Below are positions 1,716 to 29,100 of a stretch of 64,000 nucleotides of DNA, one piece after another (the stretch's first letter is position 1; every line of letters starts with the position of its first letter). The stretch comes from Sphaerodactylus townsendi. Its lineage: Eukaryota. The stretch is from NCBI RefSeq assembly GCF_021028975.2, contig NC_059427.1, positions 128,898,001 through 128,962,000 of the forward strand, given 5' to 3'. The position numbers and the translations under genes are program-made. The notes under the pieces were generated by a model. That model was not told the DNA's origin. It made no database searches and was given only the letters and a program-made list of their open reading frames with translations.

Positions 1716-1871
1716 ATCTAGGCACATCCCCAACAGCACGTGATTGTAAACAAAAGAATTGCTTCTTCCAATGCATGCAAACAACATCTGGAAACCTTCA
1801 ATACAGAGAGTTGATGAGAAGATGGAGGGGAGAATGCAAACAGTTTAATAGTGCTCAAAGAAATCACACAC

Positions 1872-3280: not shown

Positions 3281-3434
3281 CTTTCAGAGACGTGGCCTAT
3301 CCCAGAGAGCAGCTCTTTGATCCTCCGTCCAGCTTTATCAGGATTCATGTTGACAGGCTGCATATCGTCTGGGCTGCACAAGCCACAGGTCATCAGTCGG
3401 CCCTTAGCAGACAAAGCCAGAAGCTCAGACTCAC
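3281..3434 (-). CDS. FAAP100: FAAP100 coding exon 4
   Basis: Encodes GESELLALSAKGRLMTCGLCSPDD...IKELLSGIGHVSER. Acceptor ttctcctcag, donor AG|GTCAGA; 154 nt, phases 1/2. Confidence 0.94.
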
Positions 3435-4130: not shown

Positions 4131-4494
4131 CAGAGGTGTACTGACCTAGGGGCATGGGGATATCCATGTCCCCGGGCGCATGCCTTTCAGTCACGTGGGG
4201 GGCACAGGAGGGCTCCCCCATGTGACCAAAGGCATGCGCCCACAGCCGGCACCCCACCCCACTCCCTTACTTGCGAGTCAGCTTCAGGAAGTGGCACGGT
4301 GGTGGATGGAGTGCTCCATCCGCCGTCCCGTCGCTTCCTAGAGCCCGACTTGTGAGCAAGCTGCTTGGCCTCCGGCTGGCTGGAGACTGAGCAGCTGCCA
4401 CTGCCACCAGTTCAGGTAAGTGGTGGGAGGCAAAGAGGGGCCCTCCCAGAGGATGTTTAGTCTCCAGGAGTCATTTGGCCCCCATACGCCTCTG
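4131..4494. mobile_element. hAT-like non-autonomous element
   Basis: Termini cagaggtgta / tacgcctctg, GC-rich interior with short inverted repeats, degenerate TSD. Confidence 0.65.
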
Positions 4495-5782: not shown

Positions 5783-5883
5783 CAGTGGTGGGATTCAAAT
5801 AATTTAACAACCGGTTGTTTACAAGCACCATTTTAACAACCAGTTCTGCTGAAGTGGTGCGAACCTGCTGGATCCCACCATGG
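5783..5883. mobile_element. hAT MITE, CAGTGGTGGGATTC family
   Basis: TIR cagtggtgggattc / gatcccacca-tgg, flanks cttttagc / cttgtagc; same family as the copies at 48949 and 59093. Confidence 0.8.
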
Positions 5884-7502: not shown

Positions 7503-8431
7503 CTTCTGACTCTCGAGATGATAAGGAAAGGGCCACCACGCTGCAGATACTCAAGCTGGCAGGAGACAGTGCAGATGGAAGGGTCCCAGGGGCGTCCTCC
7601 AACTTCTCAGTATCTGGGATGTTATTGTCCAAGTCAACAGCATAAATGTCAGAGTGAGTGCTGTAATACATGCGGCTTCCTCCGCTGCATGCTGCACACA
7701 GGACAGGCCCCTGCAGGTAATATTCTCGGAGCTCTGGGACCTTGACTTCTTTCCCCTGTGCTGCCTTGATGGCCACCATTTTCCCATAGTGTCCAAGAGC
7801 CACTACACAGTCACATCCTAAATCCCCAAAGGCAGGCAGCTCTTCGGCATCTGGGGACTTTCGCTCTGTCCTCAAGGCTCCAATGAAGACAACTGGCTCT
7901 TCCAAATGATGAAGGATCTTGATGGGTGAATCTTCACAGTGGCGGTTGTCAGGAGAACTCAGGGACTTCAGAGGCACAGAACACAACTGTCCATCTGGGA
8001 AGCCACAGAGGATCATGGGTGAATCCAGCATGGCAGCATCAACGCCAAAGAGGAGGCTGAAGAGGGGCTCCTCCAGAATGAATCCCCCTGAGTGGCGAAG
8101 GCCCTCTTTGGAGCCACTGGTGCCAGGAGAAGATGCGCAACACAGCACCGGAAGAAAGTGAGCTAGGGACACGTCCCCATCATTGCTTGTGCAGGTGGTG
8201 ATGTCCACATGGCTGATTGGTTGACGTGGCAAGTTCTCCTGGTCCTCAGGGCTTGGGAGCTTGTGGAGATTCATGCACCACTTCCCTTGTACTTGGGAGA
8301 GGGTGACGAGGACATCGTTGAGCAGTGTGAAGGTGCAAAGCGTGGCATCGGGGAAAGTGCAGGCACTGGACCCCATGGGGAGGACGGTGGAGAAGCAGTC
8401 ATTTTCCTCTCCATCTGTCTGCTTCACTAAC
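7503..8431 (-). CDS. FAAP100: FAAP100 coding exon 3 (large exon)
   Basis: Covers most of ORF 7414..8427 (LFSLLFGVDAAMLDSPMILCGFPDGQLC, ILHHLEEPVVFIGALRTE). Acceptor gctttgaag, donor G|GTACTA; 929 nt, phases 2/1 fit the neighbours. Confidence 0.95.
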
Positions 8432-8889
8432 CTTCAAAGCAAACAAGGAAAAGCTTTCAATAGAGCCAGAGGGGAAAGTGTGGTGGAGGGGGAGTAAAAA
8501 AAATGAGTGTTTAGCATCTGCTTCATGGAGCTGAATTCAAGAGCAGTGAGCTGGATAATGCAGAAGGAGACTCTGGAGGGAGGACCCAGTGACTTAACCC
8601 TTTTGGTGCCCTATAAACTCCAGAGCATCACTTTAAAGGCTTAGAAACCAGACAGCAGTGACAGAGGGGCAAAGTCTGCCGAGTGCATTGCTGGTGGTCT
8701 TCAAGAGAATAAAAGATCAGTGCTACACACTCAGCCTTGCAATTACACCCACAAAACCTATTAATCTACATTTTTTAAATTACTAGCTCCTCTGGCCACA
8801 TAACCTATATCCATATGGAAAACTGAAACGCTTTTCCCGTTTCTAAAACTTCCCTGCCTGACAGACGTGATGCAATTCTTACTCAGTGT

Positions 8890-9181
8890 AGGTGAAAAGT
8901 AAAGGTAGTTCAAGCACCAGGTGATCACTGACCCATGAGGTGATGCCACATCATGACATTAACTAGAAAGTCTATGCTTATAGGATGGTTTGCCATTGCC
9001 TTCCCCAGTTGTCTACACTTTACTCCCTAGCAAGCTGGGTACTTATTTTACCGAATTCAAAAAGCTGAGTCAACTTTGAGTTGGCTGCCCGGAATCTGAT
9101 TTCCACAAGGTTATAATTCAGATCGTGAGCAAAGCTTTGACTGCAGTACTGCAGCTCACCACTCTGCAACATGAGCTCCCT
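8890..9181 (-). mobile_element. Sauria SINE
   Basis: Diagnostic tggtttgccattgccttcccc...agcaagctgggtac(t)tattttaccga...gctgagtcaac, with an (ACCTTT)-like tail and tRNA-like head. Confidence 0.8.
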
Positions 9182-9622
9182 ACTCAGTTTTGGCAGGAAA
9201 TGATCTGCAAGCCTTGAGCAAGCTGATTATCCTGCACCCCAGAAAGGCAGTTTCTCTCCTTGCTGCAACATAGGCAATTATTAGGCAATACCTAATATCG
9301 CCTGATATGCAGATCTATAGCCCACTTTGCCAGCACATAGTCCCTCCTGCTATGTCAGGTGACAGGGGAAAGAACCCCATTGGTAATTCACAGCAGAAAA
9401 TACTTGGTGGATATAATTTCTGTCATGCCAATATACTCTCCTGCACCTTCCCTCCACCACTAGGTTTTCTGCTCCTTCTTTGGAAATCAATAAGGCCCAA
9501 TCTCAATGTACAGGAATAAAAGGCAAATTCAGTCAACAATGGGCAGAAGGGCTTCTGGAATACCATAGGAGGGTAGTCCTTAAAGGGAAACCCTACCCCT
9601 ACCCCTCCATTCTGAGGAGCTA

Positions 9623-9855
9623 CCCTGTTTCCCCGAATATAAGACATCCCCGGAAAATAAGACGTAGTAGAGGTTTTGCTGAGGTGCAAAATATAAGGCA
9701 TCCCCTGAAAGTAAGACGTAGCAAAGTTTTTGTTTGGAAGCATGCCCGACAAACAGAACACAGAAAAATAAGACATCCCCTGAAAATAAGACATAGCGCA
9801 TCTTTGGGAGCAAAAAATTAATATAAGACACTGTCTTATATTCGGGGAAACACGG
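9623..9855. mobile_element. Tc1/mariner (Tc2-like) MITE
   Basis: TIR ccctgtttccccgaatataagaca / tgtcttatattcggggaaacacgg, TA duplication, internal ataagac repeats. Confidence 0.85.
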
Positions 9856-9894
9856 TATCAGATAACTGCACTGCACCAAGTCCCTGCATAACAA

Positions 9895-11047
9895 TTTATG
9901 AAATTGTTAATCTCACCTTTGGCATGGTGAGATCAGGAGGGCCGTTGAAGTGATCATTCCTGAGGGTCCATTGTATACTGGGGATCAGAGGGCAATGGAG
10001 CAGGAGCGCAGGTGGAGGAAATAATCGTGCAGATCTGACTAGACACCAGTTAGGGCCCATTATCAGGGTCACCAAGTGGCAGCTGCCAAGATATATTTCT
10101 CCATCCTCACCGCATCTGCAAGTAGCCATCCTGCAGAGTTTTTAGAGTGGTTAATGGCTTGCTGTCCTCCACTCAGAGGACTGTGGCCAGGGTGTTCCTG
10201 GTATCTGCTGTGATGATTTTGCTGCGCACTTTCAAGATAAAGTCACCCAGTCCTGCATGGGATTGAACAGAATCCTGTGGAGGTGTCTGGATTATTGGAC
10301 CAGTTTCATTTCTCAAGGTCCAAGGATGTGGACAAGTTGCTTGCAGTGATATAGCCTACTACTAGTCCCCTGGATCCTTGTCCATCCCAGCTGATAAAGG
10401 GCAACTGGGGGTGGGGGTGGGCTAAACCAGAAGATTCAGGAAGAAGTAAATGCCTCCTTGATGGAGGGAATAGTGCCAGCACTTCTGAAAGCGGCAGTGA
10501 TCTATCCCTTTTGAAGGGGCCCTATGGTTTTGGGCAATTTTTGCCCGGTTGTCACACCAGTCCTTAAAGAATTGCACTGGCTCCCGATTTGCTCCCAGGC
10601 CCAATTCAAGATGTTGACATATAAAGCCCTAAATGGCTTGGGCCCTGCTTACCTGAAGGAGCTCCTGTGCCTGTATGTACCTGCCTAGACACTGAGATCA
10701 CAGGGGAAGGCACTCCTGATGTCACCTCCACCCACTGAGATGCAGGGGCACATGGAAGGGCTTTTTCTCGTGATTGCCTGCAGGCTCCGGAATAGTCTCC
10801 CCTTGGAGATTAGACACCAGCCTTTTATGGGTTTAGGTGCATGTGAAGATCTTCTTCATGCAGGCATTTGGTTAGTCTCCCTAAAAACCCTCTCTACAGC
10901 TGCTGGTCTTTGGGGTGGGGGGCAGTTATTTTGATGTGATTTTAATTGCTGTTCTATTATATTTTATTTATGTTTTTATTGTCGTTTAACACTGTAAGTT
11001 GCTTAGAGACATTAGTATGAAATGGGGTATAAATATCATAAACAAAC
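9895..11047 (+). mobile_element. Degenerate L2 LINE (internally deleted, with 3' end)
   Basis: L2-like RT remnants (cccctggatccttgtccatcc) and 3' region (tataaagccctaaatggcttgggccctgcttacctgaaggag...) ending in an (A/C)-rich tail. Confidence 0.7.
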
Positions 11048-11436
11048 ACATAAAATTCACTGCTGTTTAAACTTTATTCAAATTTAGTGGTTTTTAAAGC
11101 AACTTAAACTAGAACACTCGTAGGAAACCTTACATGTGCCAACAGTGGCACATCAGACCATTTTGCTTGGCAGCCAAGTACAATGTTTCCACCTAAGCAT
11201 TCAAAAAGTGAGCAGCACACCTGGCGCCAACGGTGCAGGAGAAGACAGCAGGCATTGACAAAGACTCATCGTCATCTCCCAGACTTGCAGAGCCATGAGT
11301 GGAGTCCAAGGCTAGCAGTGCTAAGATGCTAGCGTTGTTGCTAGGACTTGGCTTGTTCCTAGCATGTCCAGCTAACTATAATGTTGCATAATTTGAGCAC
11401 TCGGGCTGAAGAGGGTGCCTACCCCTGCCCCAGAAC

Positions 11437-11798
11437 CAGAGATGTAGCTGGCCCAGAGTGCGCCCGGTATGCACTCTGTGTTTTCCGCCCTGCCCCCCCT
11501 TACCTTAGTGCAGGCTGGAGAAGCAGCCTGTTCCCTTCAGGCTGAAAACGGCCTGGTGGGAACTACACTTCCCAGGAGACCCTGAGACTCGCAAGGTCTC
11601 CTGGGAAGTGTAGTTCCCACCAGGCCGTTTTCAGCCTGAAGGGAACAGGTCGCTTCTCCAGCCTGCACTGTTTCACAAAGGTAATTGTGGGGGGGACTGC
11701 AGGGGGGCGGGAGGGGGGCGCCGTGGGGGGACTTTCCGTCCCCCAGGCATGCGCCCGGTGCAACGTGCGCACCCTGGCCCCAGGTAGCTCTGCTTCTG
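11437..11798. mobile_element. hAT-like MITE with a long internal hairpin
   Basis: Perfect 8-bp TSD CCCAGAAC, termini cagagatgtagct / agctctgcttctg, internal palindrome at about 11506-11670. Confidence 0.85.
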
Positions 11799-12412
11799 CC
11801 CAGAACATCGAAATACAAAATCAAAATGTAGGCCAGCAAGAACACATACGAATCTTTGTCAAATAACATTACGCATCCTGTGGAATTAAATGCAATGTTC
11901 CTACAACCAGTCTACAGTCATCAGTGAATTGGCAGAAGCATATGAAGTGGTCTCCTGTGAGAAATCACAGGTCCATCTTGTTCAATATTGTTTACTCTGG
12001 ATGGCAGCAGCTTTTTTGAGGCCTTTGGCAAAGATGTTTGCCAACATGTGAGGACTTCAGATTCTATCTGCCTAGATTTTGGAACTTTTACATACAAAGC
12101 TTTTGCTCCACTGCTACGCAAACCCCCCCTCCCCACATGTAGTTCTATTCTCATAGGAAACTGCTTTATACAGAGCCAGACACTAGTCCATGAAACTCAG
12201 AATGGTCCATTTTGACAGCCTAGAGGGCCACTGCCAGAAAACGACTTTCCTAGCACCTGCTACCTCCTGCATGCAAAGTGTGGACTCTGCCAACAAACTA
12301 CCACCTTTCCTTGAAAAGTGTTCAGTTGCTGCTTGAAAGCAATTATTGAGGTGTCCTGTCAGATCTCCTCAAGGATGACATTCCAGAGAACTGGATCCAC
12401 CACTGGCTAGCA

Positions 12413-12560
12413 CAGGGGTAGGGAACCTGCGGCTCTCCAGATGTTCAGGAACTACAATTCTCATCAGCCCCTACCAGCATGGCCAATTGGCCATGCTGAC
12501 AGAGGCTGATGGGAATTGTAGTTCCTGAACATCTGGAGAGCCGCAGGTTCCCTACCCCTG
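12413..12560. mobile_element. Palindromic hAT MITE (same family as 1557-1715)
   Basis: CAGGGGTAGGGAACC...GGTTCCCTACCCCTG, TSD GGCTAGCA. Confidence 0.9.
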
Positions 12561-12780
12561 GGCTAGCAGGTAAGAAACTAATCACTGGCAATGAAGGCAT
12601 AAATAACTTGGGATCTCTGGAGGGGTGGCAGAGATGGCGAGTGGTGGTAGTAGGGAGATGCCCCCTAGTTTGGAGCTGTCCAACCCAAACTACTAATTGA
12701 ATTTCATGGCAGGTTATCAGCTGGCAAACAGTCTGGTCAAAACTTCAATCCAGCCAGATACTGGCCCAGCCAGCTCTCAC

Positions 12781-12899
12781 CTGCTTTGGTAGTCCAAGGA
12801 CACACAGTAAATGCCCACTCCGGCACACAGGATATAAAGCTGCTGGTGGACAGGCAGGAGTTCCACATGCCAGACTTGATCAGGAAACCTGTAGACAGC
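12781..12899 (-). CDS. FAAP100: FAAP100 coding exon 2
   Basis: Acceptor ttcttcctag, donor AG|GTGAGA. Encodes AVYRFPDQVWHVELLPVHQQLYILCAGVGIYCVSLDYQS(R), resembling human RFPDQVWHLELL; 119 nt, phases 0/2. Not in the ORF track. Confidence 0.93.
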
Positions 12900-15651
12900 C
12901 TAGGAAGAAAACAAGCACAGTGAAGAGGACTGGGAAGGGAGAGAAGGCCCTCTTCAGTAGAACCTTGAGGGGTAGAATTAAATAGGGGAATTGTGAATTA
13001 CCTCTGAAACACTATCCCCTCATCTACACAACTATACTTCATGAAGGCCAAGTATATGAACACATACCCAGGGCTGGTTATTAACGGAGTGAACAGGGCC
13101 TGTCATCATTTTCCTTAAAGTGACCTCTCTGGGAAAGATGCCAATAGGATAGGATATGTTTGGCTTTCATACATATATGCTCCTGTCCTATACACAGGGA
13201 TCATCCATAGGACGGCTCTGCTCCTGTGCCTTCAACAGCAGCCTGACATGTAGAAATGGAACAGATGAAGCGTCACCTGCTTCACAGATAATGGAACAGG
13301 ATAAAACTTCACCTGCCCTATTTCTGTAAGTCAGGCTATTGTTAAAAGGCACAAGAACAGGGCCAGGACAAAGCTGGCAATGCCAATTACCAAGATAATA
13401 TGCAATTTGGTTTAACATAAAAATAAAGGATATAATATCTTGGGAATAGCTCCCCCTGAATACTACAGTCACATGGAGTAGAAAGAAATGAGTTCCAAAT
13501 GAGCATCTGTTACCCCCACCCCCCCACCCCCGTCTTCTCTCCTGCCCACATTAGGTCTGGCCAGACAAAGCATCCCTCAGTCAGCTACTATATTCAGTGG
13601 TGTGCAGTCAAAATCTACAATGTCTGTACATATTCTGATTTAAATGTTTGCCATGGTCATAAAACCTATTGATCTAGTTTTTTTCCTCTTCATTATCTGA
13701 GGATGTACAACTTCTGTTATAGGGTATTTCAGTAAAGGTCTGTTAGAAAAGCATGTCTCACAATAAGTAGAGATTTTTAGATATGAGACAAAATTCATTT
13801 TAAAAGCTCTTAACCAGTGCCTCTGCTGTCATTCTGTGCTGATGAACAAATGACATATTTTACTCAAGATGGGGTTTCATTTCATCACTGAGGGAACAAG
13901 CAATAGCCCACATGGCTGTCTGCAGCAATTCAAAGTGTTAACCCATTTGTGACCTACTTCTCTGGATGAGGTAAAAGTGTAGGAGGTTGAGCCAGATATT
14001 ACCATAATGGGTTCCTTAGAAACAATCAAGGGAATAAATTAAAGATACATTTATAACACAGTGCTAAGGTTTGTCATGAGCCTAGCAAACAATGCAGGAA
14101 AAATGGCAGTCATACAAAAGCCACCAACATTTAGCTTCAGTCAGGAAAAAGAATTTCAATTCTTCTTCAGGGAACAGGGAACAGAAAAACACACATTTTA
14201 AAAGATTTGTCAAAAGTGTCAGAAGTGAGATGTCAAAAAAACTCACAAATAAGATGTTAAAAATTAGATGCCGCATCTAAGTGGATTAGAAAGCACAGGT
14301 AAGATAACTACTCTGCTATAAAAGGGTGCATTGAGAAGTCATTAGAGCACCTGCTTAAAGATTTACAGTGTAATTGCATGCAGATTTATTCCAACCAAAG
14401 CTCAATAAGATCAATAGGTTTAGACTGGAGTAATTCTCCATCACACTGTTAGATGGCTAATCTCAGGTCTCACACATTTGTCAGCATTCCCTGCTGGCTT
14501 TTCATGAAACAAGCTATACCAAAATCACAGGTTGTGTGCTGGGTTGAAGTTGCCAACATAGAGCACACAAGCATTCCTGCAGAACTGAGCCCAGCATTAT
14601 CACCCCAGAAAATAGAGGGAGGGGGCCACCTATGATACTCCAATGCCACAGCCATGGTACATACAAGTGGGCTTATGGGAAGGAAGATGAAAAGGCAACA
14701 CAAATCACACAGAACCCATCACTCTATAACCACTTATGCAAGCCCTGATACAGGATCTCTGTGCCACTGGAAAGCTTGCAATGTTACCCCCCTCCCCCGC
14801 CAACAACCCATTAATCATAGAATTAATGAGCTGATCCACATTCCAATGTGCCGCACTTAGTGATATGCTAAAGTCCTATTTTATCAGCAGTAGAGTGCTT
14901 TGTGTGCCGGCTCCCTTTCCCTTTACACAATATAAGGTGTCTGCAGGCATGGGGCTTTTTCTAATGATCCTCTATGCAATGTGTATCTTCCCCCCTTCCC
15001 CCCTTAGTACATGGGGGATGGGAGGTCAGAGTTCCATTTGTTCCATGACAATTTATACACGTATGCAGATTTTTCAATTTCAAAATACTGTACTGAAAAC
15101 AAAGCCTTTTAGGACTGCTGCTAGTGACAGGTGTACAGAAATACAGTACACGGTCTCCTGTACATGCACAAAAGCAGCTAGGAGCCGTTAACAGCCCCTC
15201 ACTCTGGAAGGACACAGCTATAAAATCTGCCATAGCGACAGCTGGGAATCTGAGTTACTAGGAGAGACTAAGCACATGCTGAAGCGCAGTTACCCCCTAA
15301 CCACTCTAGGATGCATAATACTGTACTCACAATTGGGATGCTTGTAAGGTGGATTTTTCATCATAGCTGGTGATGAGAAACTAGGTTTAGCAAGTAAAAG
15401 CACAAAAGCACAAATGAACTGACACAGTGCACAAATATGGATTCATATGTATGTGCTGTTAAAGGGGAAATCAGACTACTAAGGGTCTTGGACCATCTGC
15501 CCAGCCTTTCTCCTTGGATGCCACTGTGAAGATCCCAGAAGCAGCTCACAGCATCTGACCTACTTTCCAGGGCCTCCACAATTCCCCTGCGAACGACAAG
15601 ACGTCAGCTGGACCAACCTAGACCCGGCTGGGGCAGCCATGTACCACTTAC

Positions 15652-15816
15652 CTTCATTAGCCGCCCTTCTTGATCATAGATGTAGACATACTCCGTGCCA
15701 TTGGAGAGGTAGATCTGGTTCTCGTGGCACAGCACCCTCGGCTTCCCAGCTGCCAGCCCCCCCACCGGGCAGCAGAATCCTGCCAGGTAATCCACCCTGT
15801 GCCCCACTTGTGCCAT
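15652..15816 (-). CDS. FAAP100: FAAP100 (Fanconi anemia core complex-associated protein 100), first coding exon
   Basis: ATG at 15816 gives MAQVGHRVDYLAGFCCPVGGLAAGKPRVLCHENQIYLSNGTEYVYIYDQEGRLMK, matching the FAAP100 N-terminus (YLAGFCCP.GGLAAGKPRVLCH). Acceptor ttcctttccag before 15832; donor AAG|GTAAGT; 165 nt, phase 0. Confidence 0.95.
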
Positions 15817-15849
15817 GATCCCTGGTGCCAATCTGGAAAGGAAACCAAA

Positions 15850-16620
15850 CAGAGATGCAGACATGGGCTGTGTGTGGGAGGGGGGGAGGTGGTGCGGGTC
15901 CGCCCTGGGGCGACTGTCTCCCCACTAGCGTGAGAAAAGAGCGAAAGGGTTGCAAAAAGAACGCAGGGACCCTCCCCCCTCCCTCCATAAACGCCCCTCC
16001 CCTCACACAGAGCAGCCTTCTCAGCGCCCCCACCTGTGCGATTCTACCCCACACCGACGTGGGCTGCCCGTTCCCAGGAAGGACGGCACTAAAAAGGGCA
16101 ACAAAGAGGAGGGAGGGAAAGGCACCGCCCCCCCATGTGCCCCCGCCCCAGAAAAGGAAGGCGACTCCCCTCGGGGCAGGAAGAGAAAGTCCGTAAGGCG
16201 GCAGCATGGGGAACTCAGCTGCCAACTCCCTCCTCACCACAAAGGGGCGGGACTACAGTTCTGACCACGCCTTTTCTGCCTCGCGGCGTCGCTAATTAAC
16301 GGAGCGGGCGGCGCTTCCTCCCCGCTTTACGGCTCCCTCGCTCTCGCAGATGAGGTCTACGCGCGGCAGAAGAAGCGGGCTGGGCGGACGTGGGTTTACG
16401 ACACGTCGTAAAACGGAGTGGAGAAGGCGGGGAGGAGTGTGCAGCGGTTTCTGACATATTGCTGCGGGGGGAGGATAGAGGTCTTTGCACGCTAGAAGGA
16501 CTTCGGGATGGGGGTGGGGGGAAGGACCCCGTTATGAGGTCCAGGGAAGAACTCGGGGTGCTTCCGCCGGCCACTATAGATTACTCCAGACCTGTAAAAG
16601 GCAGCTTGGTTGGGCGACTG
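15850..16620. promoter_or_regulatory. CpG island promoter of FAAP100 with a probable non-coding exon 1 ending at about 16238
   Basis: High GC and CpG density. GC box and ZNF143-like GGGCGGGACTACAGTT at about 16245-16260. Minus-strand donor TG|GTGAGG at 16238/16237 lies upstream of the acceptor at 15832. Confidence 0.75.
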
Positions 16621-17044
16621 TGCTGTTGCAGTGGATGGGAAATGTGCACGTTCAGGGTGGAGAATGAGAGGATGGCCCGAATGCTTTGGAGGGTTATGTA
16701 ACTATAGAGTCATTTCTCTTGGAACCTGGACCCAAGGGGATAGGGCGGGATATACATTTAAGTAAATAAAGGCGGCTGGAAGAGTATTACGAGCACAGGA
16801 AGCTGTGAAGATATGGAACTTCCATAGCTACAGGCAATTTATCGTTTGGTGGAGACAAGCCGCAATGTTGCCCGTGTAATCTGCCTCTCGTCTCGAGACA
16901 TCTGGTTGGTCTTTCTTGGAAAGAAGGTGCTGGACTCGACAGACGTTTTAGTTAAATCTTTAGGCTTTTATACACCCTGACATCCATTTAGTGGTTATAG
17001 GAAAGCATCCTCTGTTTTAATTATATTGTAAGCACGGTGCAGCC

Positions 17045-18733: not shown

Positions 18734-21700
18734 AGAGATAAGTGAACTCTGACCTGGAGAACTTGGTTCAATTCACCACTCCTCTACATGAAGCCTACTG
18801 GGTGACCTTGGGCTAGCTCTCTCAGAACTCTCACCCCATCCAAAAGGAAGCAATGGCAAATCACCTCTGAACATCTCTTGCCTTGAAAATCCTATGGGGT
18901 CTTCATAAGTCAGCTGTGACGACACACACACAGATATTAAGGTCCTTGTGTTTATTTTGGTTGTTTGCAGTTATTCTTCCAGGAGAGGCAAATGCAAGAG
19001 TGGAACCAATTCACACTGCAAGGCTGGCCCACAGCTGCAGTGACCAATACACATATAGTTGCAGTTCTGTGTGCTGACCACTTGTCCAATTCTGGCCTGG
19101 GTCCATCACCACTGCAAGCTGCTTGACAATAGTTTGATCAGCACAGTGATGCCGTTCATGGGGGAGCTGTATCTGTGACTTCGTGGTCTATCAGTGTAGC
19201 TTTCAAAGGCACAGAAACCTTGCTGGAACTAGAGTTTGGCAATCCCCTTCATCTAACTTGCCTTCAGAACTCCATACCTGGTCATGTTCAGTACATAAAT
19301 TGTTGCATATCTCTTACAGTTCTAATTGGGTGAGGTAGGTAGAGATCTATGCTCACCACCTGAGTAACCTCAGTGTCTTCAGCGCAGGACTCACATTGGG
19401 AGGAGCTGAGCAAACAGCCATGCTCCAGCAAGGGAAAGGAGAGAAAGTTCCTCAAGTTCACAAAAGCGTTGATCATTTTATAAAGTTTTGGATCCACTGG
19501 CCAGTTAGAACACACTTGAATCAATGCTTGCTTTAGTGCATTACATTGGTGAAAACACGTTGTGGTTCCTGTAGTAAAGATCAGCAGCAAAACTGCCAAG
19601 GTGACTGCTGCTAGCTTAGAACAGCATGTTGACCTGTTTTTATTTTTTGTACCACTTAAAAGATAGCAAAAGACCTTTTTCACCTGGTTATGACTAAGGG
19701 GACACCAGCACCGAGTGCTGTCATCCTATATTGCCAAAAAATTCTTGTGACTGCAGTTAAAGGCAATTTGCTCATATGTATTTTGTATGCAGCAGCTGAG
19801 TTTGAGTAGTCATCAAAACTAGCTCTCCACAAAGAAAGGCCTTCTTGAGAGTTGTCAAAAGCCGAAACATGCGGAATGTGATACTTGATTCACCAAATCC
19901 TGCTGTACTGTGAAAAAAATGAACTTGTGTTGCAGGCAGGAAACTGGCCATTAAAAAACTAGAAGTGATGAATAACTAGTTGGGGTTGGAGGACATTCAT
20001 TTCTCCCCTTGAAGACCCCTTTGAAGTCCTAAGTACACTTTGTACCCTAATAAACTCATGCTGATGTTAGGAAGAGCTAAAATTCTTACAGATTAGTCCT
20101 GGGACTTCAGGGTTTCAAGTTCCTCTGAAGGTGCTTCAGAAGTTGAACATGCACACATCAGTGTCTTGCAGAATCATCACAAGGTAACATGTTCTAAAAG
20201 TACTGATCAGACTAATTTTTTGTGGTTACTTCCTCCACCCACTGCTACTCCAGATTGACACCTCAGCTTTGGGCAATAGCCTGGTTAGACTGCAATCCAT
20301 GGTAACTGGTCTTAAACAGCACAGCTATTCACTCTAACTGCAGCCAGCTCAGGGTTTTGCAGTCCTTTCCAGGGCTTGAGGGCGCTCGCCAGGTTTACAG
20401 AGAGTACCTCACACACATCAATAACTTTTGTACTTGGAAACAACTTAAAGTCTTCCAGGCTGAAGGAAAAACTCCTGCTTTCCCTTCATCAAAATGCTCG
20501 TGTTTTGCTCTTATGAGAGGGGCCAGTCGCCAAGATTTACATGCAGCTGTACAGATTTTCAGGAAAGAGGAGTGGCCATTAACTCCCAGAGGATGGGAAG
20601 TATTATATAAACTCAGTTACTCATAATTTGGCTGGAGCTCATCTGTGATACTTGGCTTAGTGGCCCTTTGGCTCAACTTAGCCCTTTTCCCTGAAATGGC
20701 CTCAGCTCGTATAGCAAGCATGGAAAGAGTGAAGGTCTCTTAATATTGGGTGGAGGTGGATTTTTAAAAAATGTATTTTGAATGCAGGGCAAATTCATCC
20801 CCACATTGCAGGCAAGAAAGCCAAAAGTACCACTCAGCGTGTGGGACCTCATACAGGAAGACTTGGGTTTTCATTCAAGGTAGAATTTAGATTCTTTAGG
20901 GCTGAAATGTAGCTGTTTGTATTTGTCGTTCTAAGAAGCTTGTACCCAAACAAAGCAGAATCTTGGTTGCTTAAGCATCACAGAAAGCTTGAGAAGACTG
21001 AGGAAATCAATTCTGATTCTACTTTCACTGTTAGCTGCTTTGATTCTGCAGTCTCTCTGTAGTCAATTCTGTTGCCACTCAGCTACTGGCCTAGTCTGCC
21101 CTGCTGGCTTGGTAGACTGCAAAAAGGGCAGTGGTGATTCTCCTCTCTTGGATGGGCTTGCTTCAGTTGCATTACCTTTTACCTCCTTTACGGCTGGAAT
21201 GTTTTAATAATTTTAACATTGCTCTCCACCATGACATCGAAGAGATGTATTAGCACAGAATCAACATGTTGAGAATCTACATATTTCTGCTTTCTGCAGT
21301 GGAGACATGTGGATTGTCAAAAACAAACAGATTTCGATGCAGCTTAGATGTTTTTTTCCCATCAGTGCTTAAGTGCAATATCTACATTACCCAGATAGTG
21401 TAGCCAGTATAATTTGTGCAAGTGTGACAGAAATATTTCCTTCTTGGAATGTTCAGAGAAACTGGAATTTGGCAAAGAACAAGATTGTAATCCACCTGAT
21501 TACTAAGAGATGCAGAGTACTGGCTGGACCTTACAATTTGTCAGGCATGGCACCTGCCTTCCCTGGCATCAAACCACTCAGGCCTCAAAGTCACACCTGG
21601 TCAGGGGAACATCTTTTTATATACCTATCTATCATATTTTAATGCACCCTTTGTTCTAAATCTCTGTGCTTGGTAACATAGCTAAGTAGGCAACCTCGCC

Positions 21701-22199
21701 TGGGACCTCTGGAAGTGGGGAGGAAGGCGCGGAGGCTCCACTCAGAAGACTATTGCTTGACCTTGAGACACTCAGTACTCCATAACAAAGCTATTCACAC
21801 CTTGTTGTCCTATTAAACAGTGGGAAGATTGGGGGGGGGGGGGGGCTGAGGGGGAAAATAAGGGAATAAATGTGTTTGCAGGAGCCAAGATCCCCAGATC
21901 TGGCTTCCTGCAGTTTGAGCCCTTGTTGCCAACCTAATAAAGGCTTCTGATTTCATATCCAGAGTCAATTTATTGATCGTTGTGCCAAGACTGTACACAA
22001 TTGCACCTCTGGCAGCAAATTTCTCCAGACATCTCAAGCTAAAGAGGAGTATTTTAAGGAACAGGCCCTCTTAAGACTAACTTCTTAAGACTAACTAACC
22101 TCTTAATGCCTCCTTCTCAATGGAACTATGCTGCCAAATTCCACAATCCTCAAAACCTATCTGACTTCATCCTGAAAGCAGCTTTGCAACTTTGTGAGA

Positions 22200-22205
22200 T
22201 TTATT
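22200..22205 (-). terminator. Candidate poly(A) signal of the secreted-protein gene
   Basis: AATAAA on the minus strand about 150 nt after the stop; a second AATAAA at 21974-21969. Confidence 0.5.
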
Positions 22206-22351: not shown

Positions 22352-22610
22352 TTAGTTGCCATCTGTCAGAGGCTCTCTGAGCTTCTTCCCATCCCGGATC
22401 AGGATTCTCCGTCGTTTGGCTGGCAAGGGCACAGTCTCTGGTTGGATGACTCTGATGGGAGTCTTTGCGGGAGTCTTCCCCTGTCCTTTATTAATCTCAT
22501 CCACAAAAGACTCCACTCCTTCAAAACGTGTAGTCAGTTCTCCAAGACGTTCTTTGAGGGCATTGAATTCTTTGTACAGGTCATCAAGGGCATCAGAAAG
22601 GGGTTTGATC
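22352..22610 (-). CDS. Uncharacterised secreted coiled-coil protein, coding exon 3 (coiled coil, basic tail, stop)
   Basis: Acceptor ctctctcttactctttag, phase 2. Encodes IKPLSDALDDLYKEFNALKERLGELTTRFEGVESFVDEINKG...KRRRILIRDGKKLREPLTDGN*, the 3' part of ORF 22352..22762. Total CDS 489 nt. Confidence 0.87.
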
Positions 22611-22878
22611 CTAAAGAGTAAGAGAGAGAGAATGATGAGTTGGAGGTATACAAAAGACTCTATAGCAGGCTTGCACCTCAGATAATGCCTAGAAGCAAAG
22701 AATATAACCTTTATTACAACCACTACTATATCAGGGAGAAGCCTCACAGCTGAAGCCAACATCTTCCCAGTTATCAGTAGATGTCCTGTTGGGACCCCAG
22801 TACTTGCAGAAAGGCTACTAAAAATTAGATTCTTGATTGTTCACTGAAAATGGAGCTTTAGGCACAGTGCACATACAC

Positions 22879-23077
22879 CAGCAGTTCTCAACCTATGGGT
22901 CGCGACCCCTTTGGGGGGTCGAACAACCCTTTCACAGGGGTCGCCTAGGACCATTAGAAAACACATATTTCCGATGGTCTTAGGAACCGAGACACAAATA
23001 ATTTTATGGTTGGGAGTCACCACAACATGAGGAACTGTATTAAAGGGTCGTGGCATTAGGAAGGTTGAGAACCACTG
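22879..23077. mobile_element. Non-autonomous SPIN (Space Invader, hAT) element
   Basis: cagcagttctcaacct...gggtcgcgacccctttggggg...caccacaacatgaggaactgtattaaagggtcg...aggttgagaaccactg matches the SPIN_NA/URR1 consensus as recalled; lies in the last intron of the secreted-protein gene. Confidence 0.85.
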
Positions 23078-23099
23078 ACACACTGATCAAGACATAATT

Positions 23100-23205
23100 T
23101 ACCTGCCTCTGATGAAGTGGAATTTAAAACCACAAAAGTTGTTATCTTGAAGGTGCCATAAGATTCCTTTCTGTTTTTACTGCAACAGACTAACACAGCT
23201 ACCTT
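23100..23205 (+). mobile_element. Penelope-like element terminal fragment
   Basis: ctgatgaagtgg...ccac(a)aaag...aaggtgcca...ctgcaacagactaacacagctacc. Confidence 0.6.
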
Positions 23206-23240
23206 CAATCACACCAGAAGTCCGCTAACCCCTAACTCAC

Positions 23241-23370
23241 CTTCCATAGTCAGGTAACACAGTCTGGTGATCATAGAGAAGGAGATTCTTGATTTGAGTC
23301 GTGATAGCAAACTTCCAGTTGTCCAGGACAACAGTAAGATTGGCACATCCTTTCATGTTGACTTTGTTAG
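23241..23370 (-). CDS. Uncharacterised secreted coiled-coil protein, coding exon 2
   Basis: Acceptor attttatctag, donor AG|GTGAGT; 130 nt, phases 1/2. Open frame (A)[42 protein letters not shown](R). Confidence 0.87.
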
Positions 23371-24483
23371 CTAGATAAAATAGGATATAAAATCAAGTCG
23401 TAACATCAAAGAATACAGCCCCTTCCCTACAGACTCATTTCTGGACTTGGGTATTTTCCCACCATTTATATTAGACAATAATTGTAATTATAATAATTTG
23501 TCAAGCAAAGGGCACATTTATGAAATCCACCGTAAAACATATGAAATCAAAATAAACTAGGCCTATAAAGTATATGCTAAAGATTTGTGGCCCGTCTTAG
23601 AAGGATTTAAGATGGGCAAAAAGTTTACAAGAACAAAATTATGATGTAATGCCAAACACATACATACTGGGAAAATCTAATAATGGAACCATATTTTTAA
23701 AGGCAAAACTGGGTGTTGCAAAAGTATGGGCAATGGAGAGTTCAGATCTCCTATATTTTGAGCATTTCTTTCTAGGTTATCTCCTCAAAACAGGATGCAC
23801 CTGGCCTCCTAAAAATATATTGTGGAAACCTGGTTACACGTCATGAGGATGAATATTTTGAGTTGAAATCTATTAAAAAGATTATTAAAAGTTATAAAAA
23901 AGTTTATCTGGCCTTGGACGGAGCTCATCACTTAAACAGCTTCTCATTTCAAGCCCTGAGGATGAATAAATTTGGTGGTAGATAACTTCTTGTTCTACAG
24001 TTATAAGGAAGTGTGAACTTATTATTTTAGAAGTGTGCCGATGGGGTGCCAGATGTCACCAGTTCTTGTGAAAAGTAGCCACTGACTTAATGTGAAAGCT
24101 AAACTTACCCTTTTGACTACCAGATGATGCAGAATAAGTATGGGACTCAATACACATGCAGCTGTCAGTATTGTCTCCTATGTCTAGTAGTGGCTTGCTA
24201 GGGCTCTCAGGTTGAAGTTTTTCAAATCGCCTACTACCTAAATCTTTTAACTGGAAACTCCAGGGGTTGAATTTGTGACCTTCTGCATGCAAAACACTGC
24301 TCTAGCAGTGAACTCCGTGAATCTCGGACACTTAGCTAAGGTATCGAGATCTGAACAAAATGATCTAACTTGCCCAGCAGCCACCAAGCATTCTGTTTTA
24401 TCTCTCCCGCCAACCCAATAAAAAAACGTCCTGAGTTGCCTAAATTGCTTCCTAGGGGGACGTACAAACAAGTGGCACATTAC

Positions 24484-24583
24484 CTTCAGATCTGTAGTCC
24501 CATTCAGAGGTTGTCTGCTGCCGCTTTGGCTTGACAGAACAGCTGAGTGCCACGAAAAACAACAGGGAAAGAATCTGCCTCAT
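24484..24583 (-). CDS. Uncharacterised secreted coiled-coil protein (162 aa), coding exon 1 (signal peptide)
   Basis: Acceptor cttatcatcccacaaag| at 24588, then Kozak gcaccATG. Encodes MRQILSLLFFVALSCSVKPKRQQTTSEWDYRSE. Donor G|GTAATG; 100 nt, phase 1. Confidence 0.85.
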
Positions 24584-26023
24584 GGTGCCTTTGTGGGATG
24601 ATAAGAAAGCCATTTATGAGTTTCCCCCTCCCCCTGTACTCTTCCCACAGCATAGCAGAAAGGGCAGTTTCTTGCGCCTCAACCCCCCCCCCCCCCATCC
24701 CTTGGCAGCTCCAAACAGCACTCCTTCAACTGAGAAGCTGAAGGATATCAACTTCATATCACAATGGAATTAGACAAGGGGGAGGGGGGGGAACTCTCTA
24801 GAGAAAGAGGGGTTGTGCAATCCCAGCCGTAGCTCTTGCAGTATTTCATTCTGAAGTGTTTATCCATGGGACAAATCCGAGCAAGTCTTTGCCTGTTATG
24901 CTGTTTGGTACAGTGGTCTGAACTACTTGCGAGGGAACCTGGATCCTGTACATTAATACAAGATTCCCTTCAGATTACCTCCTCGTCTCCATTGATACAA
25001 ATATTCAGAATTTACCCACATAAAGGTATTAACATTTTGATGGGGTGGTTTGCATTTGACCCAGCCCGTGAAGCATTCACAGCTACAAAGGCAGGAAACA
25101 TAGAACATATCAATTCTTGTATCTATAAACTGGCAATTACAGCTCAACAAACAAAAGGAGACCAGCCAGATGTACAGCCCAGATGTGCCAAAACCAGGCT
25201 GGTCTAAGCTTATGGGTATCTGCCTTTGTTAGTCTGCAGCTGAAAGATCAACCCCAGCTTCAAAATATACACTGAAATCACTTGTGCATCCTTAATTCTG
25301 CTTGCACCGGGTACTTCAACCAGAATGTGGCCCATTTGTACCATGCTTTTGAAGTTAAGAGTGACCCACCATCATTTTTGAACGTATGAAACAGAACTGT
25401 CATTCCTCACGGTAGGAGACATTCGTCTCTGTGCAGCAGTCAGCTCTATTCTTGCCTATAATCTCATACTAATGGTACCGATGAGGGGATAAACAGAGCT
25501 AATTCTACATTTGCCTCCACGATCTCATGACTCAGGGACCTGTGCACATCCCTGATCCAAGCTTTGTGAGTTCTCCATCTTACAGACATCAGGTTGGATC
25601 TTGCAGATCCATTCCTCCCATGTCAAGGAGACTTTCCACTGAAGTAGGACTGCCAGAAAAGTCTTTGTCAGGGGAAGGTTCCTTGAACCAGGAGAAAGCA
25701 CTGCTGTAAGTGGGATGGATCTGTGGAAATCAACATCACCTCAGAACTACAGGAGAAACAAGAACCTAGGGGCTCCAATAACACACAGAAGACACACTTC
25801 AAGATGATCCATTTTTTAAAAAAAAGGAAGTGCAAATTTGTCAATGGAATCCCTGCAAAACCTGTATAACAAACAGGACCTCACAAACATTGCAGAACTT
25901 TGGAAATGAGTTCTTCTGCACCCAAGCCTATTCAAATGTCAACAGTTTTTTAGAACATCATTTGGAGACTGCAAAAAAGAGGGGTTATTCAAAAGAATGA
26001 AGCCCAAAACATTGTTTTCCTAC

Positions 26024-26125
26024 CTGCTGAGTAGAAATCCTGGGGAGGCAAGATGGATCAGTTCTTTCAAGTCGGCTTTTCTCCCCTCTCTGGCCAGGAT
26101 TGGCTTCTCTTCTGCACCTTATAAC
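26024..26125 (-). promoter_or_regulatory. Putative TATA box and non-coding first exon of the secreted-protein gene
   Basis: Minus-strand TATAA at 26123-26119, then an ATG-free stretch ending at donor CAG|GTAGGA (26024/26023), upstream of the acceptor at 24588. Confidence 0.5.
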
Positions 26126-29100
26126 ATGCTGCTCTGGAATTCGGCCAAACCACACAGCAGCCTTCTAATTGCAAACAGATCCGTTTGGCCTGCAGAGAGG
26201 TCTCCAAACTGTGACTTGTATGGCTCTTTAGGGAAAACAAACCCACCCCCCCTTTTTAAAAAAAGGATGTCTGCAGGACAGCAAGGCAGAATAACTCTTC
26301 AGGTTGCAGGCACTTGGGCGAAGAAAAGGGTCCTCTTCCCTTTGGCTCACAAAAGAGCTTTGCAATCCAATCCAACTTGCATAACTTGGGGCAGAATCAC
26401 ACCCCCCCCCACCCCGAAGTCATTGTTATTTTAAGGCTAAAGGGGGAAAGTGTTTTCCTTTGGAGAGGAGATTTAGTAGGGGAGAAGAAGCTCTGATTTT
26501 CCTGGGATGCTTGCCTTGTGGAGATGCGGAACCCCACCCCAGTTTCCACATAAAGGGTTTCCTCAAGACCTACAAGTTGGTTTGATGTGCAAAATTTCTT
26601 TTTGCCAACCCTTGGTCATTCAAGTGGCAGGCCAAGGACTAGCAGGATCAATATGATTGGTACAAGACCCACATACTAGCCGGACTCTTCCTTGCAGCCT
26701 TTGCCCACCAGTGCTAAATCAATGGTAGAGAAACTGGGCAAGACTTTTAAGCACAGTAAAAGTTTTAATCTCAGACTAAGTTCCAAAAATAGGCAAATAG
26801 CAGCAAACATGAAATATGAATTTAAAAGAAAATATATATTGGTTTGTAACTTGCTGGGGCTTTCAAAGGCACGCATGGGGCAGACAGAGGAGTGGCTTGG
26901 TTTTGATTTTGTGGCATGCGAATGGACACGATCTACCAATACTTTACTGTTCTGCTATACTTGATCTTAGCCAAAAGACCAAGAAGTAACTATCCAATGC
27001 CATCTTTATCCCAAGTTCCACTCCACTCCCAAAATCTATTTTCTCTGAAGCTGCATATTTTAGATCCTAATGGCCAATACTGGGTTGCCGGTTTCCCTCA
27101 GAGGAAGGAATTGCGTAATCTGTTCTTCATGCCATTTCATTCCTGGCCAAGTGGCAGTTCCACAATAGCTAGGCCTTGCCGACCTCACCAGTTTTGCCTA
27201 TCTAAGCTCAAGCTTTATAAAACTTTTAATTAAGGATCTTGTAATACGTTGTCCAAGAAAGTAAGTTCTGAATACCGGTAAACCACATCCCTGACTGGGC
27301 TTGGCAATGGATTTTACAGATAAAAAGGTTGATGTAAGATTTCCCTCAAAGACAGTCCACACAGCTAGGAAATCATCTCTCACACACATAAGGACTTGGT
27401 ATGAAAACCTCCATGTTGTAAGGGCGCCAAAGTTTCATAGGAACCTTCAAGGTGTCTGCTTATGGAATTCTCTCCACTTCAGCATCATCTTAGTGTGGTT
27501 TCCAAAGCCATAACAAGCTGCATCAAACTCCACTTAATTACTGGTGCAGTTTTAAGGAGTTTTTAGCTATTCCCTGAACAGCACAATTCACAGAGAAGCT
27601 AAATTTATCAGTGTCAGTGCACCAGCTGTGGTCTTTAGGAAGCCATTAGTTGGCTATCTCATCACCCACTCGGCAACAACTGGAGTCTGGGTCTTTTCCA
27701 ACATGGCACCCATGGAATGGACTCCATGAAGAGGTGAAGGAAGCCCTCAGGAGCTGCTGCAAGGCTTGCTTATTTGCCAGGACTGGGGGGGGGGGGTCGA
27801 ATTGGCAGGTATCATTTAAGAGGGGGGAAAAAGATCTGGGCTTTGTTATTTCATTTTGGTTTTAACTGGAAATGTATTTTAACTATTATCACAAGCTGCC
27901 TGGACCCTGGAGAAAAAGCACAGTATAAATGCTTTAATAAACAATTAATACATTTATGCACTTGATTTAAAATAACCACTAATCCGGCTCGCAACCAGCA
28001 GTTTTAAGCCTAAACTTCTTCAGTCTATTTTGTTCCTTGTCATTTCTACTCTCAAATTATACTGCAAAATCACAGTCTGCCTATTTTGCAGGCTTGTGCA
28101 GATGGCAAGAAGGAAGGCAGCATGACATAGCCTAATGTCATCAGATCTCGGAAGCTACAACAGGACTAGCACTTCGATGAGGGACCACCAAGGAAGACCC
28201 TGCAGAGGGAGGCAATGACGAAACACCTCTACCCTCCACTTCCCTTGAAAGCGCCTTGCTTTAAGTCGGTTGTGGCGTGATAGCACATATGCATGTATGT
28301 ATGGCAGATTATAAAACTAGATCACATTGTTTCGTCCCTTTGTCATACGGCTCTTTATATCTGAAAATCACCATCACCAGAAGGCACAGTGGCAAGACGC
28401 CATTATTTTTAAATTGAAATACAAGAAGTGTCAAGCGACAGTTTGCTTTTGATCGAAGTACCCAAACTGAAAGGGTCCCAAAGTGTGCACATGCCATCCT
28501 ACGCGGTTTAGGAAACACAATTTAGTCAGCCAGCTTTCACAACTGTGCAAATATTATTTTAAATCGTTCAGCCAAAGTTGTGATGCTTTCCTGGCCTGTA
28601 CCATTTCAGGTTACCCACTACCAGTTGCACATGGTCACCAATGGGGAGAAACTCCCACCAGGTATAAAATTTATGTCAGAAAGCTACACTGAACCCATCT
28701 CCTGTGCATGCCAGTTTTATGTGCACGGGGAGATTTGCTTTAAAATGGCATGCTAATATGTAATTCTTTCCCGGCTGTAACAAGAAGTGAAACTGGCCAA
28801 GAAAAGGGCCATGACTTGATTACGTGGTACATATAAACAGATTATGTGAGGAAACAGTATTCCTCCTTGCTTGTCAATGCTACAGAGCCAAATAAATTGA
28901 TGTAGAACAGATTACTTCAATGTTTCCTTTGAAAAGCTGTCTTGATCTATTTTACAGTTCGCAGATTGAACCCTGAAAAACATATGGCTGAAATATGAGG
29001 GATGCAAGAGAGAACAACAAAAAATCTTTCCTGTCCCACATTCAGCATTAGCATAAAGGTAGTTATATATGAAACCCGATATGAATGACTGGTCCACCTT

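What the first reader, a model, noticed from the sequence alone, without database searches (positions are those of the whole stretch)
22352..24583. Precursor-like architecture of the orphan protein: KPKR|Q site, single Cys, NLT sequon, five heptads, KRRR tail
Seen: after a signal of about 16 aa comes VKPKR|QQ, a basic site exposing an N-terminal Gln. The mature chain has one Cys (GCANLT) next to an N-glycosylation sequon. The heptads LSDALDD-LYKEFNA-LKERLGE-LTTRFEG-VESFVDE-I are followed by a Pro/Lys/Arg-rich tail with KRRR and KK. Known: KR sites are cut by proprotein convertases, N-terminal Gln can cyclise to pyroglutamate, and basic tails often bind glycosaminoglycans. Inference: a processed oligomeric ligand or matrix component, possibly disulphide-linked.
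Basis: partly seen in the sequence, partly recalled or inferred. Interest (0 to 1): 0.7.

Follow-up and report, generated by a model that had tools for sequence, protein, structure and literature searches.

The report
Headless trimeric tendon-matrix protein family
This is a real spliced gecko gene for a small protein conserved from sharks to birds, predicted to be secreted and to form a sugar-bearing three-stranded rod with basic tails; its fish relatives are expressed in ligament, fin-fold and intermuscular-bone tissue, so it is likely an undescribed connective-tissue matrix protein that mammals have probably lost.

Summary
Three GT-AG exons give a 162-aa protein identical to an uncharacterised Sphaerodactylus townsendi record, lying between NPLOC4 and FAAP100. 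It belongs to an unnamed family with three paralogue groups: A (this gene; si:dkey-282h22.5, si:ch73-127m5.3), B (si:ch211-76l23.4) and C (si:ch211-243a20.3). Cys42 is kept in 112 of 112 A proteins and the sequon Asn44 in 111 of 112; B and C mostly have Val or Ile instead of Cys. The KR|Q cut is not a family feature: 31 of 111, canonical furin site 0 of 111. A three-copy model gives a parallel trimer (0.80, best control 0.01). Zebrafish tables put C among jaw-ligament markers, B among fin-fold fibroblast markers, and A and C up in intermuscular bone. Best reading: a secreted trimeric coiled-coil matrix adaptor with no head domain. No true mammalian record was listed, but listings were incomplete. 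Function is untested.

The parts
24484..24583 (-). Coding exon 1 (100 nt): ATG in strong context, signal peptide, basic linker, start of the WDY segment; phase-1 donor
   Evidence: identical to P0001; RNA reads of a relative cover it thinly
24536..24583 (-). Predicted signal peptide, residues 1-16 (contains Cys15)
   Evidence: hydropathy; signal-like stretch in 111 A, 14 B and 21 C proteins; cleavage point inferred from the small-residue rule, no signal predictor run
24521..24532 (-). KPKR (18-21): basic patch after the signal; convertase site in lizards at most
24611..24613 (-). In-frame upstream ATG (would add 10 aa), weaker context
23241..23370 (-). Coding exon 2 (130 nt): helix 1 with Cys42 and the NLT sequon, and most of the conserved LPDY hinge; phase-2 donor
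   Evidence: donor confirmed by RNA joint
23333..23347 (-). Cys42 to Thr46: single mature Cys on a core position, Asn44 sequon on an outer position
22352..22610 (-). Coding exon 3 (259 nt with stop): main coiled coil, Pro-rich linker, basic tail
   Evidence: acceptor confirmed by RNA joint
22490..22609 (-). Helix 2, residues 78-117: 12 hydrophobic a/d slots, predicted parallel three-stranded coiled coil
22511..22528 (-). RFEGVE (105-110): g-to-e Arg/Lys-Glu pair resembling the R-h-x-x-h-E trimerization motif, but with Phe at a
22355..22489 (-). Low-confidence Pro-rich linker and basic tail (118-162, pI 11.4) with KRRR at 22406-22417
21969..22205 (-). Two AATAAA signals in the 3' UTR region (starting at 22205 and 21974)
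   Evidence: RNA depth in one run extends to about 21950; use not shown

Best explanation
[quoted passage not shown] Steps: (1) shown: three-exon gene, signal-like N-terminus, two helices joined by a highly conserved LPDY hinge, disordered basic tail, no globular head. (2) Predicted: three chains zip together in register through helix 2 (78-117) and helix 1 (42-70); the three Cys42 meet in one core layer, Asn44 glycans point outwards. (3) Inferred: three thiols can form only one bond inside a trimer, so the spare thiol would link two trimers or another matrix protein; B and C chains, with Val or Ile there, would form unlinked rods. (4) Inferred: the three basic tails, clustered at one end, and the short basic patch at the other end would bind glycosaminoglycan chains or acidic matrix proteins with avidity, holding the rod in the matrix. 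(5) Inferred from fish relatives: it is made by fibroblast-type cells of tendons, ligaments and myosepta. KPKR is likely a basic patch, trimmed in some lineages at most, and not a propeptide switch.
For: Gene and splicing. Core identity to the gecko residue 0.71 (helix 1), 0.82 (hinge), 0.71 (helix 2) against 0.20-0.31 for signal, linkers and tail across 144 aligned proteins. Helices H39-66 and H81-120 at pLDDT 75-97, tail under 55. Three-copy model: score 0.80 (runs 0.79, 0.80, 0.80), best of 3 controls 0.01, at least 74% contact agreement, partner pLDDT at least 76; in-register pairs 75-75, 78-78, 85-85, 88-88, 92-92, 99-99; residue 42 in the interface of all three copies; the mark was reached by 21 of 30 microbial proteins solved as pairs and 0 of 23 solved as single chains, in eukaryotes by 17 of 29 and 0 of 30. 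Glu110 in 111 of 112 A and 15 of 15 B with Arg/Lys105 in 108 of 112 and 15 of 15. Tails: median net charge +7 (A), +7 (B), +13 (C). Expression of relatives: si:dkey-282h22.5 and si:ch211-243a20.3 up in intermuscular bone against muscle in two cyprinids, and up (+2.40, +1.43 log2) in runx2b-null zebrafish tail together with the tenocyte gene clec3bb (+2.03) while spp1 falls (-1.30) (PMC11689531 tables S11, S15); si:ch211-243a20.3 is one of 10 markers listed for the jaw-ligament cluster with tnmd, ucmaa, ognb, thbs4a (PMC12891946 table S2); si:ch211-76l23.4 marks cluster Scl6 (25.9% against 1.4% of cells) with and1, and2, fbln1, the genes that define fin mesenchymal cells in that paper (PMC10651129).
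Against: No protein-level evidence of secretion, glycan, disulphide or binding exists in anything I read. Only three copies were modelled, a job unlike the tool's two-copy calibration; only 1 of 7 eukaryotic pairs without an older solved relative reached the mark, so a pass may come from memory of generic coiled coils. The strict R-h-x-x-h-E motif is met at 105-110 in only 1 of 148 A proteins because a is Phe, and the motif also occurs in dimers (PMC3653964). The best sequence match among solved chains is the DC-SIGNR neck (E 2.4e-4 summed over repeats, no single stretch passing), which I recall as a tetramer. The cell-type evidence is for paralogues B and C; group A names were found in 0 of 4 tendon or fibroblast papers' supplements searched (3 of 15 files unsearched), so group A rests on one bulk study. 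The chicken C gene was also reported in oviduct tissue (PMC4625885). Tissue of the gecko-relative RNA runs is unknown.
Confidence: 0.52

Rival explanations
1. It is a secreted signalling ligand or enzyme regulator made only of a coiled coil (in the manner of ANGPTL8 or the N-terminal fragment of ANGPTL4, recalled), released by connective-tissue cells; the basic tail limits its spread.
For: Small size, no collagen or known matrix-binding domain (Pfam: nothing over cut-off); conserved positions that are not core, such as D50, D87, E91, K96, Y75, R77; modest expression (baseMean 127-637); paralogues retained for the whole of jawed-vertebrate history.
Against: No match to any ligand family; marker lists place the paralogues with matrix genes, although ligands from the same cells would do so too.
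Confidence: 0.2
2. The physiological unit is a heterotrimer: two Cys-bearing A chains with one Cys-free B or C chain, which leaves exactly one disulphide and no free thiol.
For: A, B and C share the core register and hinge; Cys only in A; A and C rise together in both fish comparisons; the gecko keeps A and C.
Against: The homotrimer already scores 0.80; B moves the opposite way in runx2b mutants (-1.65); B and C mark different cell clusters; a mixed trimer was not modelled.
Confidence: 0.12
3. One reading: a precursor activated by convertase cleavage at KPKR|Q that leaves an N-terminal pyroglutamate needed for function.
For: KPKR|Q in 8 of 11 squamates; some dibasic pair after the signal in 70 of 111 A and 14 of 14 B; [KR]-X-[KR]-R with a non-Pro next residue in 46 of 111. 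Many fish proteins start with Gln directly after the signal-like stretch, so a blocked Gln end could arise either way.
Against: R-X-[KR]-R in 0 of 111; [KR]R|Q in 31 of 111; absent in catfish, sharks and group C; most birds have Pro right after the basic run; the linker is the least conserved part of the N-terminal half (0.26).
Confidence: 0.08
4. The oligomer is a dimer, tetramer or higher bundle rather than a trimer.
For: Phe at two a positions and Leu at both a and d do not fix the number of chains (established coiled-coil knowledge; PMC3653964 passages); weak likeness to the DC-SIGNR neck; a dimer would satisfy the single Cys.
Against: Confident, reproducible parallel trimer model; strict trimer motif in 10 of 26 C proteins.
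Confidence: 0.2

Closest known systems
Unnamed vertebrate family si:dkey-282h22.5 / si:ch73-127m5.3 (group A), si:ch211-76l23.4 (B), si:ch211-243a20.3 and chicken LOC417962 (C)
   Same: This gene is a group A member (clade support 97/96); same core, same two intron positions and phases as the gecko C gene.
   Different: These are database names only; no functional description was found in the papers searched.
Tetranectin (CLEC3B), CLEC3A and osteolectin (architecture recalled)
   Same: Secreted, trimerised by a coiled coil, basic heparin-binding segment, found in tendon, cartilage and bone; clec3bb moves with groups A and C in runx2b mutants.
   Different: No C-type lectin domain here; no tetranectin chain among the 6 solved sequences matched at E up to 10.
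Matrilin, thrombospondin/COMP and tenascin oligomerisation domains (recalled)
   Same: Short parallel coiled coil with cysteine at its N-terminal end for interchain bonds, in cartilage and tendon matrix.
   Different: Those carry paired cysteines and large VWA, EGF or FN3 arms; here the coiled coil is the whole folded protein and has one Cys; no Pfam or PDB sequence match.
ANGPTL8 and the ANGPTL4 N-terminal fragment; adiponectin (recalled)
   Same: Secreted coiled-coil-only chain (ANGPTL8); a single N-terminal Cys that joins trimers into hexamers (adiponectin).
   Different: No sequence match; no fibrinogen, collagen or C1q part.
Actinodins (and1, and2)
   Same: Co-markers with paralogue B in fin mesenchymal cells; recalled as matrix proteins lost in tetrapods, as group B seems to be.
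   Different: I did not compare sequences; the recalled Cys-rich actinodin repeats cannot be present in a chain with one Cys.

Membership tests
si:dkey-282h22.5 family, group A | Full-length sequence likeness and clade membership | tested here: met
   profile E 4e-74; inside the 36-row A clade at 97/96 in a 50-row tree (4 of 54 chosen rows dropped for lack of the anchor motif)
si:dkey-282h22.5 family, group A | Cys42 and Asn44-X-Thr46 | tested here: met
   112 of 112 and 111 of 112 in alignment A3
si:dkey-282h22.5 family, group A | Position next to NPLOC4 | tested here: inconclusive
   met in the gecko; elsewhere only indirect: a Labeo member is named 'Nuclear localization 4 like'
Parallel trimeric coiled coils with R-h-x-x-h-E | Arg(g)-[ILVM](a)-x-x-[LIV](d)-Glu(e) | tested here: not met
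   RFEGVE has Phe at a; strict motif 1 of 148 A, 0 of 17 B, 10 of 26 C (definition from PMC3653964)
Parallel trimeric coiled coils | Three chains in register | tested here: inconclusive
   model supports it (0.80 against 0.01); other chain numbers not modelled; no measurement
Proprotein-convertase-processed precursors | Conserved R-X-[KR]-R or dibasic site after a propeptide | tested here: not met
   R-X-[KR]-R 0 of 111; [KR]R|Q 31 of 111; linker identity 0.26
Tetranectin / CLEC3 family | C-type lectin domain after the coiled coil | tested here: not met
   no Pfam lectin match, one mature Cys, tail unstructured
Matrilin / thrombospondin / tenascin | Oligomerisation coil plus VWA, EGF, TSP or FN3 domains | tested here: not met
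   no such domain in 162 aa
Secreted matrix (matrisome) protein | Secretion and deposition in matrix | not testable with these tools
   indirect only: signal-like N-terminus, sequon, marker tables
Heparin-binding basic-tail proteins | Binding to glycosaminoglycan | not testable with these tools
   composition only
Any solved fold | Specific structural match | tested here: inconclusive
   best Z 5.3 over 50 residues among 48161 chains, a flat list of unrelated helices

The most novel reading that the evidence does not exclude
An overlooked family of headless coiled-coil matrix rods, as old as jawed vertebrates, whose paralogues divide the connective tissues among them (C ligament, B fin fold, A myoseptal tendon), assemble as Cys-coded homo- or heterotrimers, and were shed stepwise: B with the fin fold at the fin-to-limb transition, alongside actinodins, and A and C in mammals.
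Probability: 0.3. Interest if true: 0.78.

Novelty: new variant of a known kind. Interest (0 to 1): 0.54.

Why it matters
The vertebrate matrix parts list is built mostly on mammals. A conserved three-paralogue family that marks ligament, fin-fold and myoseptal cells but has no name, domain model, structure or functional paper is a missing component for fish, amphibian, reptile and bird tendon biology. It gives direct knock-out targets in zebrafish for intermuscular-bone formation, ligament development and fin-fold fibrils, and, if the losses hold, a matrix correlate of the fin-to-limb transition and of mammalian tendon evolution. A coiled-coil rod with no head domain would also be an unusual design among oligomeric matrix proteins.

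Tried and rejected
Pfam: nothing over cut-off for the exons, the whole protein or four relatives. ESM Atlas: only the family's own unnamed clusters (0.95-0.96); no usable named cluster for residues 26-120. Foldseek with the first monomer model: 0 matches at E up to 0.001. VIA-align with the second: best Z 5.3, none at 8. Solved sequences: 6 matches at E up to 10, all generic coiled coils. Papers by gene name, Ensembl id or LOC id: 0, 1, 1 relevant of 5, 0, 1, 0; only main texts of the open library are searched and names written with spaced hyphens can be missed, so absence from print is not shown. Supplements of PMC12040314 (12 of 15 files) and PMC12912267 held none of the four names; the supplement of PMC11689531 was cut when stored, so its single-cell tables S16 and S17 were not seen. 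No indexed RNA holder was listed. Earlier scan notes: nothing. A paralogue elsewhere in the window: none. Group B in the gecko genome: only this gene matched. The one mammalian label (Mustela on P0083) sits on a tilapia accession that clusters with a second tilapia species, so I treat it as a mislabel. Rejected: propeptide processing as the family's mechanism; strict RhxxhE motif; orphan status; a conserved furin site in the tail (R-X-[KR]-R in 10 of 110 A tails).

Full report
1. Observation. The minus strand carries three coding exons, 24583-24484, 23370-23241 and 22610-22352, with GT-AG introns in phases 1 and 2; they give 162 residues and a stop. The product is letter for letter the UniRef record P0001, an uncharacterised protein of Sphaerodactylus townsendi. 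The coiled-coil pattern is far from chance: 12 consecutive a/d slots, I78 to I116, are hydrophobic, which 0 of 20000 shuffles reached. RNA reads of a related organism, laid at 85% likeness, show the exon 2-3 joint in 3 of 3 RNA runs (1, 53 and 61 reads); the exon 1-2 joint is not among the joints listed, and many reads end near 23344, probably because of mismatches close to that exon start (inference).

2. Surroundings. The gene lies on the same strand between NPLOC4 (NPL4 domain at 57337-57567; last exon with the zinc finger ends at 32211) and FAAP100 (FANCAA domain at 1867-2709). In human, NPLOC4 and FAAP100 are named in one cluster with TSPAN10 and PDE6G (PMC12375114 passages); that no coding gene is annotated between them is recalled, not checked. 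Intron 2 holds a very high-copy repeat.

3. Family. A profile of 33 relatives found 724 proteins, 120 listed; a word-free search of 1.84 billion representatives found 193, 150 listed. A tree of 50 core sequences (4 of 54 dropped) separates group A (97/96; sharks, ray-fins, coelacanth, amphibians, turtles, squamates, birds; an alligator fragment), group C (100/100; lungfish, teleosts, chimaera, newt, birds) and the B sequences between them, which are not resolved as one clade. A and C profiles align over 116 columns (probability 99.9). The gecko has a C gene at G000:C6:43835208-43843710 with the same intron positions and phases, just upstream of a SOUL-family (HEBP1-like) gene, and no B match. 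All B members that carried a name were fishes. Of 144 distinct clusters listed by the three named searches, 122 carry an organism name and none is a mammal, apart from one tilapia accession with a second Mustela label. Because 604 of 724 hits were not listed and the representatives carry no names, loss in mammals is likely but not shown.

4. Cys: 112 of 112 A, 0 of 15 B (Val), 0 of 17 C (mostly Val or Ile). Sequon Asn44: 111 of 112 A, 14 of 15 B, 0 of 17 C (a wider count of 148, 17 and 26 agrees and includes 10 falcon isoform rows). KR site: KPKR|Q in 8 of 11 squamates; among 111 A proteins with a usable N-terminus, any dibasic pair 70, [KR]-X-[KR]-R with non-Pro next 46, [KR]R|Q 31, canonical R-X-[KR]-R 0. 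The linker has mean identity 0.26 against 0.71-0.82 for the core. So Cys, sequon and heptads pass; the cleavage site does not. Tail: 130 of 141 have 5 or more K/R in 12 residues and 92 of 141 a basic-aliphatic-basic pattern; a canonical furin site is in 10 of 110 A tails.

5. Structure. With 144 sequences AlphaFold2 gives helices 39-66 and 81-120 at pLDDT 75-97, short helices around the LPDY hinge, and a tail under 55; pTM is 0.30, as expected for a lone chain of a coiled coil (first model). No specific fold match was found. Three copies of residues 22-121 fold into an in-register parallel bundle: 0.79, 0.80, 0.80 against a best control of 0.01, contact agreement at least 74%, partner pLDDT at least 76; the mark was reached by 21 of 30 and 0 of 23 calibration proteins (pairs, singles), in eukaryotes 17 of 29 and 0 of 30, but by only 1 of 7 without an older solved relative; the alignment was not used and the job is unlike the two-copy calibration. 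The interface runs from residue 42 to 117, so helix 1, hinge and helix 2 form one rod; between 56 and 78 the model's contacts (56, 60, 64, 68, 72, 75) leave the plain heptad register that I assigned. Residue 42 is in the interface of all three copies; Val or Ile there in B and C fits a core position. Arg/Lys105 and Glu110 form a conserved g-e pair, but Phe106 fails the strict trimer motif defined in PMC3653964 (passages; counts).

6. Where relatives are expressed. PMC11689531 (abstract, sections 7-9, supplement rows): si:dkey-282h22.5 and si:ch211-243a20.3 are up in intermuscular bone against muscle in two cyprinids and up in runx2b-null tails (+2.40, +1.43) with clec3bb (+2.03), while spp1 (-1.30) and si:ch211-76l23.4 (-1.65) fall. 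That pattern points to tenocytes or fibroblasts rather than osteoblasts (inference). PMC12891946 (table S2 whole, passages): group C is a listed marker of the mc-pq, pq-hs ligament cluster. PMC10651129 (table S2 rows, passages): group B marks Scl6 with and1, and2 and fbln1; the paper names the cluster with those genes fin mesenchymal cells, and the link of Scl6 to that name is my inference. Group A names were not found in these two supplements or in those of PMC12040314 and PMC12912267. PMC4625885 (table rows) lists the chicken C gene as down after mating in the utero-vaginal junction. None of the passages I read assigns a function. I did not hold the zebrafish sequences; orthology rests on database names inside clade A, where teleosts have two copies.

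7. Mechanism. Shown: gene, conservation pattern, absence of a head domain. Predicted: secretion, glycan at Asn44, parallel trimer. Inferred: one disulphide per trimer with a spare thiol that links trimers or partners; clustered basic tails binding glycosaminoglycans or acidic matrix proteins; a role as a short adaptor in fibrous connective tissue. Overall 0.52. Rivals: soluble ligand or regulator (0.2), other chain number (0.2, overlapping), heterotrimer with B or C (0.12), convertase-activated precursor (0.08).

8. Comparison and novelty. It works like the oligomerisation parts of tetranectin, matrilins and thrombospondins (recalled), but fails membership of each for lack of their defining domains. 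The gene is annotated in databases, so it is not new as a sequence; the family grouping, the trimer model, the Cys code among paralogues and the connective-tissue pattern were not found in the papers searched. Verdict: real, conserved, uncharacterised; a new variant of secreted coiled-coil matrix proteins; interest 0.54.

Noticed in passing
window 22877-23082 (intron 2): Very high-copy repeat with 16-base inverted ends (14 of 16 matching); contig depth about 890,000. It resembles a MER20-type hAT DNA transposon (name recalled).
   Followed up: partly
G000:C6:43835208-43843710 (+), loci L007-L008: Gecko group C paralogue, three exons, same intron phases, no Cys42 or sequon, about 7 kb upstream of a HEBP1-like gene; a chicken member was once annotated as a HEBP1 isoform, so this neighbourhood is shared.
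   Followed up: yes
window 1867-16700 and 32211-57567 (-): FAAP100 and NPLOC4 flank the gene; in human this cluster is a strabismus and myopia GWAS locus (PMC12375114). No link to this gene is implied.
   Followed up: partly
proteins P0015 and P0299; PMC11689531 table S8: In Brienomyrus the A and C genes share a contig length (39,554,573), and grass carp accessions of the two are 15 numbers apart, hinting at linkage in teleosts, whereas the gecko genes are on different contigs.
   Followed up: no
proteins P0144-P0146, P0152-P0154, P0276-P0287: Bird group A proteins sit on a long branch (0.53), have an eroded WDY segment and have mostly lost the basic-aliphatic tail motif, while exon 2 stays conserved.
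   Followed up: partly
window 22488-22490: RNA runs of the relative differ by a 3-base deletion at the end of the coiled coil (43 of 45 reads in one run, 5 of 55 in another), so the runs hold different alleles or species.
   Followed up: no
window 25875-26435: Low RNA depth upstream of the start codon in two runs could be an untranslated first exon or the end of the NPLOC4 transcript; the bases before the ATG could also be a splice acceptor.
   Followed up: no
window 21539-21991: A further moderately repeated element in the 3' flank (contig depth up to about 2,000).
   Followed up: no
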